From the IMG/VR virus record IMGVR_UViG_2657245544_000004: 8,898 nt of DNA. One strand, given 5' to 3'. The notes beneath the pieces were generated by a model, which was given only the letters and a program-made list of their open reading frames with translations, was not told where the DNA came from and did not search any database. This DNA is from a virus. Lineage: Duplodnaviria > Heunggongvirae > Uroviricota > Caudoviricetes. Made by a program: the position numbers and the translations under genes. Positions 3,290 to 4,859 of the stretch are shown here, piece by piece; positions within the stretch are counted from its first letter, which is position 1, and every line of letters begins with the position of its first letter.

Positions 3290-4859
3290 TGGCATGGCCA
3301 TGAGCATTTTCACGTCCGCATCACCGTCTGCTGACGTCTGTGGCACGCCACCCTGTACCGCTGCCGGTGAATGGTTCGCCATGAAATGTTCAAACATGGC
3401 GGTTGTGGATGCAGAAACCGGTTCTGCCCTGCCTGAGGCTGCCGCCAGTACAGCCCGNNNNNNNNNNNNNNNNNNNNNNNNNNNNNNNNNNNNNNNNNNN
3501 NNNNNNNNNNNNNNNNNNNNNNNNNNNNNNNNNNACGGTCATCCCCGGACAGGCCGCCAGTTTTTCAGCCTGCGCCTCTGCCCCTTTTGCCTCATCCAGG
3601 GCCATAATCTGATCACGAAGTGAGGGTCCGGCATTCGCCTGCGGTGAAGCAGCCAGAATCGGACGGGCTTTTTCCACCGTCATCTCCGGCATCGCCGCCA
3701 GCGTTGCCGCCAGTTGTTCACGTCCTTTCGCCTCTTCACATGCCATAATGCGATCGGCTTCACTCTGCGCAGATACACCAGATTGTTGCGGTGCCGCCAC
3801 GGCCAGAATCGCCCGGGCCTGCTCAACGCTCATACCCTGTTGCCCTGCCAGCATCGTGGCCAGTTGTTCACGTCCTTTCGCTTCCTGACACGTCAGGATC
3901 CCCATCACTCGCTGGTTCTCCTGCGCGGCAGCCTCCGTTGCAGTTAATTGCGGCATAGTGCCTCCTGTATCGTGTGTGTTCAGCGTCGCAGCCATCACGC
4001 TGATGGCGTCCGACGCATTGATTAATTCATCCGCCAGTTCGGCCTCAATACCGGACTGACCTTCAAAAACGGCGGCCTCTGTTCCCATAACCGCATCCAC
4101 AGATAAACCGGTATACATCGCCACTTTTTCAGCAAACATCCGGCGCGCCGCATCAATGCGCTGCTGCATGTCCTGGCGAACCTTTGCTGGCAGGGATTCA
4201 AACTGATTGCCATCCACCTTGTGCGATCCGGCGTAAATCAGCGTGATATCCACACCGGCCTGTGCCAGATGACCGGCATAGCTGACATGGCCCATCATCA
4301 CCCCAATGGAGCCGATACGGGATGTCTGGGTAACCAGCCGTCGGGAGCAGGCCGATGCCAGTAACATGGCGGCTGAACAGGCCGTGTCATTGCACAGTGC
4401 CCAGACAGGCTTCAGCTGCCGGAGACGGTAAATCATGTCAGCGCAGTCAAACGCGCCGGTGGCCTGCCCGCCAGAACTGTCAATGTCCAGCAGTACGCCC
4501 CGTACCTGAGTGTCCGCCATTGCCTGCTGAAGACAGGCGACAATGCCGTCATAGCCAGTCATTCCGGAAAATGGCCGCATGCCACCCAGCCGGTGTACCA
4601 GCGTGCCGGTCACCGGCAGTACAGCAATACCGTTCACCACCCGGTAAACACGGGCAGGTCGTTTGCCTCCGGCCATGTACTCGTCCGTTTCAGCCAGCAT
4701 CCCGGGAGCGTCAAGCTGTACCTGCTGTTGCGGTACCGAAAGGCTTGCTGCGCCCATCTCACGCCCGAGCGCGCAAAAGAAAACCCGCGCATAGGCGGGC
4801 TCCAGAAGCAGCGGCTCATTGAATGCCGCAGCGATAATATGTGAAAGATTACGTCTCAC
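3290..4859 (-). CDS. C: Capsid maturation protease / minor capsid protein gpC-like (S49 peptidase family), with a Nu3-like scaffolding region in its C-terminal part; interrupted by an assembly gap
   Basis: GTG start at 4857-4859 with AGAGGAGA upstream. N-terminal two-thirds match lambda gpC by recall (AFNEPL.LEPAYARVFFCAL, NGIAVLPV.GTLV, SGMTGY.GI, GAFDCAD.I, KPVWAL.ND..CSA..LLASA.SRRLVTQT.R.GSIGVMM.H, ITLIY.GSHKVDGN, TEAAV..GQ). The track's frame stops at 3390, but crossing 77 Ns makes that frame unreliable. A different minus frame is open from the gap edge (3457) to a stop at 3287-3289, ending 38 nt before the D ATG, so I take 3290 as the more likely 3' end. Confidence 0.8.
3458..3534. other. 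Assembly gap (run of 77 N) inside the C/Nu3 coding region
   Basis: Directly visible as a run of n characters. Length is presumably an estimate, so the reading frame across it is undefined. Confidence 0.99.
3535..3912 (-). repeat. Intragenic tandem repeat of about 150 bp (about 50 aa), at least 3 copies, within the C/Nu3 scaffolding region
   Basis: Exact 23-mer gccagttgttcacgtcctttcgc at 3709-3731 and 3859-3881 (period 150). A diverged third copy near 3553-3610 runs into the gap. Protein copies: RVMGILTCQEAKGREQLATMLAGQQGMSVEQARAILAVAAPQ / RIMACEEAKGREQLAATLAAMPEMTVEKARPILAASPQ / QIMALDEAKGAEAQAEKLAACPGMT... Confidence 0.8.

What the first reader, a model, noticed from the sequence alone, without database searches (positions are those of the whole stretch)
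3290..3534. Assembly gap inside C/Nu3 leaves its 3' end and reading frame unresolved
The track ORF crosses 77 Ns and stops at 3390, which would leave about 140 nt of non-coding sequence before D. That is atypical for this otherwise tightly packed module. A different minus frame is open for all 56 codons from 3457 to a TAG-equivalent stop at 3287-3289 (reading ...AVLAAASGRAEPVSASTTAMFEHFMANHSPAAVQGGVPQTSADGDADVKMLMAMP) and ends 38 nt before the D start. The true gap length is probably not 77, and C/Nu3 most likely ends at 3290.
Basis: partly seen in the sequence, partly recalled or inferred. Interest (0 to 1): 0.45.

Follow-up and report, generated by a model that had tools for sequence, protein, structure and literature searches.

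The report
Mis-sized assembly gap in prophage protease gene

Summary
The window carries one N-run, 3458-3534 (77 N), inside the minus-strand homologue of phage 21 gene 5/6 (lambda C/Nu3). Read literally, the ORF crosses the Ns and stops at 3390-3392, leaving 139 nt before D. Every relative examined has exactly 10 nt (GGCATTCTCC on the + strand) between the two flanks. These include two assemblies 100% identical to the window over 2138 and 5364 nt either side of the gap, eight more of the same lineage, and phage 21 (GGCGCTCTCC there). A sampled set from about 1,860 E. coli genomes shows the same spacing. 77 is 2 mod 3, whereas 1 mod 3 is needed. It aligns end to end with PHROG 53 (head maturation protease). 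Substitution patterns confirm the frame. This is a gap-length artefact in a known gene, inside a visibly decaying Shigella/E. coli prophage. Interest is low.

The parts
3458..3534 (.). Run of 77 N (scaffolding gap). The real content in relatives is 10 nt: GGCATTCTCC on the + strand, GGAGAATGCC on the coding strand, supplying codons ..V-E-N-A..
   Evidence: coordinates; 10 nt in all relatives, including 100%-identical flanks
3287..4859 (-). Homologue of phage 21 gene 5 / lambda C (S49 head maturation protease fused to a scaffold domain). GTG start at 4859, TGA stop at 3287-3289. True length is 1506 nt / 501 aa once the gap is read as 10 nt.
3287..3956 (-). Nested in-frame scaffold gene (phage 21 gene 6 / lambda Nu3 equivalent). 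ATG at 3954-3956, 200 aa after gap correction, sharing the same C-terminus and stop.
   Evidence: phage 21 annotation; ATG and length; PHROG hits to head scaffolding protein
3961..3966 (-). Shine-Dalgarno-like AGGAGG, 4 nt upstream of the nested ATG
   Evidence: sequence ACAGGAGGCACTATG; an RBS is annotated at the equivalent place in M81255
3290..3457 (-). The true last 56 codons of C/Nu3 (RAVLAAASG...KMLMAMP)
3390..3392 (-). Artefactual stop (TGA), reached only because 77 N shifts the frame
   Evidence: this frame has 24 stops and 3 synonymous against 68 non-synonymous changes across relatives
3251..3286 (-). 36-nt C-D intergenic spacer carrying the D ribosome-binding site
   Evidence: same 36-nt spacing in all annotated relatives
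2903..3250 (-). D / shp head decoration gene (115 aa)
3444..3604 (-). Third 'Tri box' repeat of the scaffold domain; the gap lies inside it (true length 94 nt)
3652..3745 (-). Second Tri box repeat
3802..3895 (-). First Tri box repeat

Best explanation
The 77 Ns are a scaffolding gap whose length is only an estimate; the DNA of the source strain almost certainly holds 10 bases there (GGCATTCTCC). Because 77 and 10 differ by 67 (1 mod 3), a literal reading shifts the frame after the gap. That produces a false stop at 3390 and a false 139-nt 'non-coding' stretch. The real gene is the 1506-nt homologue of phage 21 gene 5 (lambda C). It has an N-terminal S49 (SppA-like) serine protease domain followed by a scaffold domain with three ~47-residue 'Tri' repeats and a conserved acidic tail. 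The last 200 codons are also translated on their own from an internal ATG (3956) with its own AGGAGG, giving the Nu3-type scaffold protein. Both products end at TGA 3287-3289, 36 nt before D. Shown here: the gap size in relatives, frame continuity, protein identity and the conservation pattern. Inferred from lambda and phage 21 biology: the protease/scaffold function and use of the nested start. Inferred without direct evidence: that the Ns come from a scaffolder's size estimate.
For: Flank-to-flank distance is 10 nt in every relative checked. These are E. coli O121 and phage 21, FDAARGOS_943, E. coli ECMA0423 and S. flexneri SFBU1023 at >=99.9% identity, and ten assemblies carrying the same portal lesion. 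Two of those ten are 100.000% identical to the window over 5364 and 2138 nt either side. A 310-nt junction rebuilt with the 10-nt fill matches 1,864 E. coli genomes over at least 80% of its length; of 40 rows sampled across the ranking, the 38 full-length matches are single pieces of exactly 310 nt. The gap-free gene (1506 nt) matches 18 phage records 1506-for-1506 in one piece. Frame arithmetic: 1325 nt upstream is 2 mod 3; adding 77 gives 1; adding 10 gives 0. The product is identical to the called 501-aa proteins of five assemblies, 94% identical and gapless to phage 21 gp5, and covers PHROG 53 positions 5-583/583 at E=2e-220. Peptidase_S49 scores 115 bits against a cut-off of 24.9. Codon test on 3287-3457 in nine relatives: 38 synonymous / 35 non-synonymous changes and no stops in the proposed frame, against 8/66 with 9 stops and 3/68 with 24 stops in the other two.
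Against: The source strain's own reads were not available, so the 10-nt fill is inferred from relatives, not observed. The prophage is decaying (frameshifts in the portal gene and the terminase large-subunit tail, and a terminase small-subunit gene cut by IS600), so a strain-specific lesion hidden in the gap cannot be formally excluded. Why an assembler broke the sequence here is unexplained: the Tri repeats are only 72-78% alike, too diverged to collapse.
Confidence: 0.96

Rival explanations
1. The 77 Ns stand for 77 real bases: a 67-nt insertion relative to all relatives, or a deliberately masked real stretch. C/Nu3 would then truly be frameshifted and end at 3390.
For: Only the literal record: the ORF listing gives 3390..4859. 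The prophage has other inactivating lesions.
Against: Both flanks run flush to the Ns and align with relatives with exactly 10 nt missing. A 67-nt insertion would therefore have to lie wholly inside the N-run. No relative in the sampled rows from about 1,860 E. coli genomes or among 18 phages has extra sequence there. Assemblies 100% identical in 7.5 kb of flanks have 10 nt. The frame ending at 3390 shows no coding signature and its peptide matches no phage protein family.
Confidence: 0.015
2. The gap is short, but the source strain carries its own small indel or substitution inside the missing stretch. That would make C/Nu3 a pseudogene in this strain, a further step of prophage decay.
For: Three neighbouring head genes are already damaged in this lineage: a portal frameshift (six A where a relative with an intact portal has five), a terminase large-subunit -1 deletion, and an IS600-truncated small subunit.
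Against: All ten assemblies of the same lineage, which share the portal lesion, keep an intact 501-aa gene with 10 nt at the junction. The window is 100% identical to two of them everywhere that can be compared.
Confidence: 0.025

Closest known systems
Phage 21 genes 5 and 6 (head-tail preconnector gp5/gp6; GenBank M81255, OL657228)
   Same: Same length (1506 nt / 501 aa), 94% protein identity without gaps, same nested 200-aa gene 6 with its own RBS, same three Tri boxes, same 36-nt spacer to the decoration gene shp, and same gene order portal-5/6-shp-7.
   Different: GTG rather than ATG start; 32 amino-acid substitutions. Here the gene sits in a defective chromosomal prophage rather than a viable phage.
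Phage lambda C (S49 protease) and Nu3 (scaffold) nested genes
   Same: 52% identity over the protease domain and the first repeat. The Ser of lambda's CSAG motif (Ser166, the catalytic residue as I recall from the lambda gpC literature) aligns with CSAA in the window protein. Same in-frame nested architecture with a shared C-terminus, and same position between B and D. Roles of C, Nu3 and B in procapsid initiation are as summarised in PMC3224144.
   Different: Lambda C is 439 aa with one copy of the ILxCEEAxGRE...GMTVxxAR repeat; this protein has three. The linker between protease and scaffold differs, and the C-D spacer is 9 nt in lambda against 36 nt here.
Signal peptide peptidase SppA (Peptidase S49; PDB 3rst, 4kwb)
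   Same: Residues 77-290 match the SppA protease domain (E about 4e-13; Pfam PF01343).
   Different: No membrane anchor. It is fused to a phage scaffold domain, and its function is capsid maturation, not signal-peptide clearance.

Membership tests
Phage 21 gp5 / lambda gpC head maturation protease (PHROG 53) | Full-length sequence match to the family profile, including the C-terminus | tested here: met
   Reconstructed protein residues 2-501 align to profile positions 5-583/583, E=2.3e-220. The 56-aa tail alone aligns to positions 528-583, E=3.8e-23.
Phage 21 gp5 / lambda gpC head maturation protease (PHROG 53) | Peptidase S49 domain above Pfam's gathering score | tested here: met
   PF01343, 115.3 bits against a cut-off of 24.9, residues 147-292; SppA structures are hit at E about 4e-13.
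Phage 21 gp5 / lambda gpC head maturation protease (PHROG 53) | Conserved nucleophile serine (lambda gpC Ser166; identity of the residue recalled from the literature, not checked here) | tested here: met
   Lambda ...NCS166AG... aligns with ...ACS162AA... in the BLASTP alignment.
Phage 21 gp5 / lambda gpC head maturation protease (PHROG 53) | Position between the portal gene and the decoration/major capsid genes | tested here: met
   Window order on the minus strand is A-W-B-C-D-E, as in phage 21, lambda and all fetched loci.
Phage 21 gp5 / lambda gpC head maturation protease (PHROG 53) | Proteolytic activity and self-removal from the procapsid | not testable with these tools
   Needs biochemistry. 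The prophage is also probably unable to make heads, because its portal gene is frameshifted.
Nu3-type nested scaffold gene (phage 21 gene 6) | In-frame internal start with a ribosome-binding site in the 3' third of the protease gene, sharing its stop | tested here: met
   ATG at 3954-3956 preceded by AGGAGG with a 4-nt spacer; the product is 200 aa after gap correction; colinear with annotated gene 6 of M81255.
Nu3-type nested scaffold gene (phage 21 gene 6) | Separate translation of the short product | not testable with these tools
   No expression data are available.
Scaffolding gap with estimated length | Flanks colinear with gap-free relatives, and an N-run length unrelated to the real distance | tested here: met
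   Flanks are 100% identical to L012/L014, which hold 10 nt against 77 N.
Scaffolding gap with estimated length | Record or assembly metadata stating a scaffold gap | tested here: inconclusive
   The source record was not found. The N{77} pattern is absent from genome contigs, and the 489-aa product containing X residues is not on record.

The most novel reading that the evidence does not exclude
The unsequenced stretch in the source strain is not the canonical 10 nt but hides a strain-specific lesion (an indel or small insertion) that truly truncates C/Nu3. That would be one more step in the decay of this IS600-truncated, frameshifted prophage.
Probability: 0.03. Interest if true: 0.1.

Novelty: already known. 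Interest (0 to 1): 0.04.

Why it matters
It matters only for annotation hygiene. A gene caller that reads through the Ns would record a false 489-aa protein with 26 X residues and a wrong C-terminus, plus a false 139-nt intergenic region. The correct call is a 501-aa protease/scaffold protein, with a nested 200-aa scaffold protein, ending at 3290. No new biology follows from it.

Tried and rejected
(1) I searched genome contigs for both flanks separated by exactly 77 positions, to find the source record; there was no match. (2) I looked up the literal 489-aa product containing X residues in the protein-position index; it is not on record. The source assembly and its gap metadata therefore remain unknown. 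(3) I considered whether the internal Tri repeats caused the contig break. They are only 72-78% identical, and the longest stretch I could see shared by all three aligned copies is about 8 nt, so they are unlikely to confuse an assembler. The cause of the break is unexplained. (4) I considered whether the frame ending at 3390 could be a real alternative C-terminus. I rejected it because that frame has 24 stops across nine relatives, 3 synonymous against 68 non-synonymous changes, and no family match. (5) I did not use the expensive whole-database protein searches, structure prediction or RNA tools. The question was settled by direct DNA comparison.

Full report
OBSERVATION. The window has a single N-run, 3458-3534, of 77 bases. 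It lies inside a minus-strand ORF that the ORF listing reports as 3390..4859, 489 aa, with a GTG start. Read literally, that ORF translates 441 real codons, then 26 X residues, then the 21 residues GCTGGSLRQGRTGFCIHNRHV, and stops at TGA 3390-3392. That leaves 3251-3389 (139 nt) before the next gene, D, which starts at 3250.

The minus frame starting at 3457 is open for 56 codons. It reads RAVLAAASGRAEPVSASTTAMFEHFMANHSPAAVQGGVPQTSADGDADVKMLMAMP and stops at 3287-3289. The stop is TGA (tca on the + strand), not TAG. The spacer between the stop codon and the D ATG is 36 nt, not 38. An open frame of 56 codons is expected by chance about 12% of the time at this composition, so on its own it proves little.

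WHAT THE REGION IS. The window is the head-gene block of a phage-21-like lambdoid prophage on the minus strand. The gene order is terminase small subunit (partial), terminase large subunit, W, portal, C/Nu3, D, E, FI, FII, Z, U. The 2.1 kb around the gap matches phage 21 and its relatives at about 92-93%, and E. coli prophages at up to 96.7%. In every case 2101 window bases correspond to about 2034 bases of the relative, which is 67 fewer.

SIZE OF THE GAP. In a three-way alignment both flanks run flush to the Ns. The relatives have just 10 nt between them: GGCATTCTCC in E. coli O121 and GGCGCTCTCC in phage 21. The same 10-nt distance is found in the following:
- FDAARGOS_943.
- Two complete genomes at least 99.9% identical to the window, E. 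coli ECMA0423 and Shigella flexneri SFBU1023.
- All ten NCBI assemblies retrieved through the lineage-specific truncated portal fragment.

Two of those ten, WACK01000005.1 and CP012735.1, are 100.000% identical to the window over 5364 nt on one side of the gap and 2138 nt on the other. Both hold GGCATTCTCC.

A 310-nt junction rebuilt with this fill matches 1,864 E. coli genomes over at least 80% of its length. Of 40 rows sampled across the whole ranking, the 38 full-length matches are single pieces of exactly 310 nt. The gap-free 1506-nt gene matches 18 phage records 1506-for-1506 in one piece.

FRAME. From 4859 to 3535 there are 1325 nt, which is 2 mod 3. Adding 77 gives 1 mod 3, the shifted frame that ends at 3390. 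Adding 10 gives 0 mod 3, so the next codon starts at 3457. The junction then reads ...ACPGMT-VENA-RAVLAAASG.... This reproduces the motif of the two upstream repeats (GMSVEQARAILA and EMTVEKARPILA).

The restored product is 501 aa. It is identical to the called 501-aa proteins of five assemblies. It differs at 14 positions, all in the protease half, from the RefSeq S49 family peptidase of E. coli O121. It is 94% identical to phage 21 gp5 over all 501 residues without a gap.

The restored protein aligns end to end with PHROG 53, head maturation protease (profile positions 5-583 of 583, E=2.3e-220). The 56-aa tail alone matches profile positions 528-583 at E=3.8e-23. The tails of the other two frames match no PHROG family even at E<=10.

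I also ran a codon test across nine relatives on 3287-3457:
- Proposed frame: 38 synonymous and 35 non-synonymous codon differences, no internal stops.
- Second frame: 8 and 66, with 9 stops.
- Third frame: 3 and 68, with 24 stops.

All annotated relatives end the gene at the position equivalent to 3287 and start D 36 nt later.

HOW THE GENE WORKS (shown versus inferred). Shown here:
- Residues 147-292 form a Peptidase_S49 domain (115 bits against a cut-off of 24.9).
- Residues 77-290 match SppA structures.
- The protein is 52% identical to lambda gpC across the protease domain, with the Ser of lambda's CSAG motif conserved.
- The C-terminal 200 residues contain three diverged repeats, annotated as Tri boxes in phage 21, where lambda has one.
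- An internal ATG at 3954-3956 is preceded by AGGAGG. It is colinear with phage 21 gene 6 and lambda Nu3.

Inferred from lambda and phage 21 biology (roles summarised in PMC3224144): the long product is the prohead protease, the short product is the scaffold, and they share a C-terminus and act with the portal to start procapsid assembly. The gap affects both products equally.

WHY THE GAP IS THERE. This is not resolved. A length such as 77 is what a paired-end scaffolder writes as an estimate; that is my inference and I could not check it. The source record was not found. The Tri repeats are only 72-78% alike, so they should not break an assembly.

The window itself looks like a short-read contig or scaffold bounded by repeats. 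Its right end (8834-8898) is an IS600 terminus. The same portal fragment is seen mostly on 5-10 kb contigs (2146 of 2587 index blocks). The tail genes at its left end occur twice in at least one related genome.

CONTEXT: A DECAYING PROPHAGE. The lineage carries several lesions:
- A +1 frameshift in the portal gene: six A at 5444-5449 where FDAARGOS_943, whose portal is intact, has five.
- A -1 deletion that replaces the last ~30 residues of the large terminase subunit.
- An IS600 insertion that removes the first ~67 codons of the small terminase subunit.

These lesions are shared with complete genomes, so they are real and not read errors. C/Nu3 is intact in all of those genomes. This context leaves a small chance (about 3%) that the source strain hides a private lesion in the unsequenced 10 nt.

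VERDICT. The apparent truncation at 3390 and the 139-nt 'non-coding' stretch are artefacts of an N-run whose length is wrong by 67 nt. The gene is a known, widely distributed homologue of phage 21 gene 5/6 ending at 3290 (stop 3287-3289). Novelty: already known. Interest: very low.

Noticed in passing
window 5444-5449 (portal gene, 4849-6442, minus strand): The portal gene is split into two ORFs (5387-6442 and 4849-5472) by a +1 frameshift in a homopolymer: six A (GGAAAAAAGG) where FDAARGOS_943, with an intact 530-aa portal, has five. The same lesion is present in complete Shigella flexneri and E. coli genomes. The truncated 351-aa product is indexed in 2587 blocks of the assembly collection, so it is a real, widespread pseudogene.
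   Followed up: partly
window ~6716 (terminase large subunit, 6643-8553, minus strand): A 1-nt deletion relative to phage 21 and FDAARGOS_943 (GTGC-AGTTGCA against GTGCTGGCGGCA) replaces the last ~30 residues and moves the stop from 6626 to 6643. In lambda gpA, as I recall, this is the portal-binding end. The deletion is shared with S. flexneri SFBU1023.
   Followed up: partly
window 8525-8898: Homology to the terminase small-subunit gene stops at 8833, and 8834-8898 is an IS600 (IS3 family) end. Only the C-terminal ~107 codons of the small-subunit gene remain. The upstream part of the gene, about 67 codons, is replaced by the IS, so the prophage is defective. The window probably ends because the assembly broke at this IS.
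   Followed up: partly
window 3802-3895, 3652-3745, 3444-3604: The scaffold domain has three diverged direct repeats (72-78% identical in DNA; protein motif I(M/L)xC(E/Q)EAKGRE...GM(S/T)VExAR.(I/V)LA). Phage 21's record annotates them as Tri boxes, 'function unknown'. Lambda gpC/Nu3 has a single copy.
   Followed up: partly
window 4857-4859: The C homologue starts with GTG here, where phage 21 has ATG. The start overlaps the end of the portal gene by 11 nt, as in relatives.
   Followed up: no
L005 / L017 against window 7828 and 7955: The complete genomes SFBU1023 and ECMA0423 differ from the window by a pair of opposite 1-nt indels 127 nt apart in the large terminase gene, which splits that gene in their annotation. 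The window agrees with FDAARGOS_943 there, so the indels are probably errors or private lesions of those assemblies.
   Followed up: no
L024 and L025 (LR213455.1), corresponding to window 1-1800: One related genome carries the FI-FII-Z-U-V tail-proximal genes twice. In one copy the head genes upstream of FI are replaced by an IS110-family transposase. Such duplication would explain why a short-read contig ends near the window's left edge.
   Followed up: no
L003 1431-2621 (FDAARGOS_943), corresponding to window ~1040-1048: The closest RefSeq E. coli relative has an ISEc60 (IS4-like) insertion between the Z-side tail gene and the head-tail joining gene. The insertion is absent from the window.
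   Followed up: no
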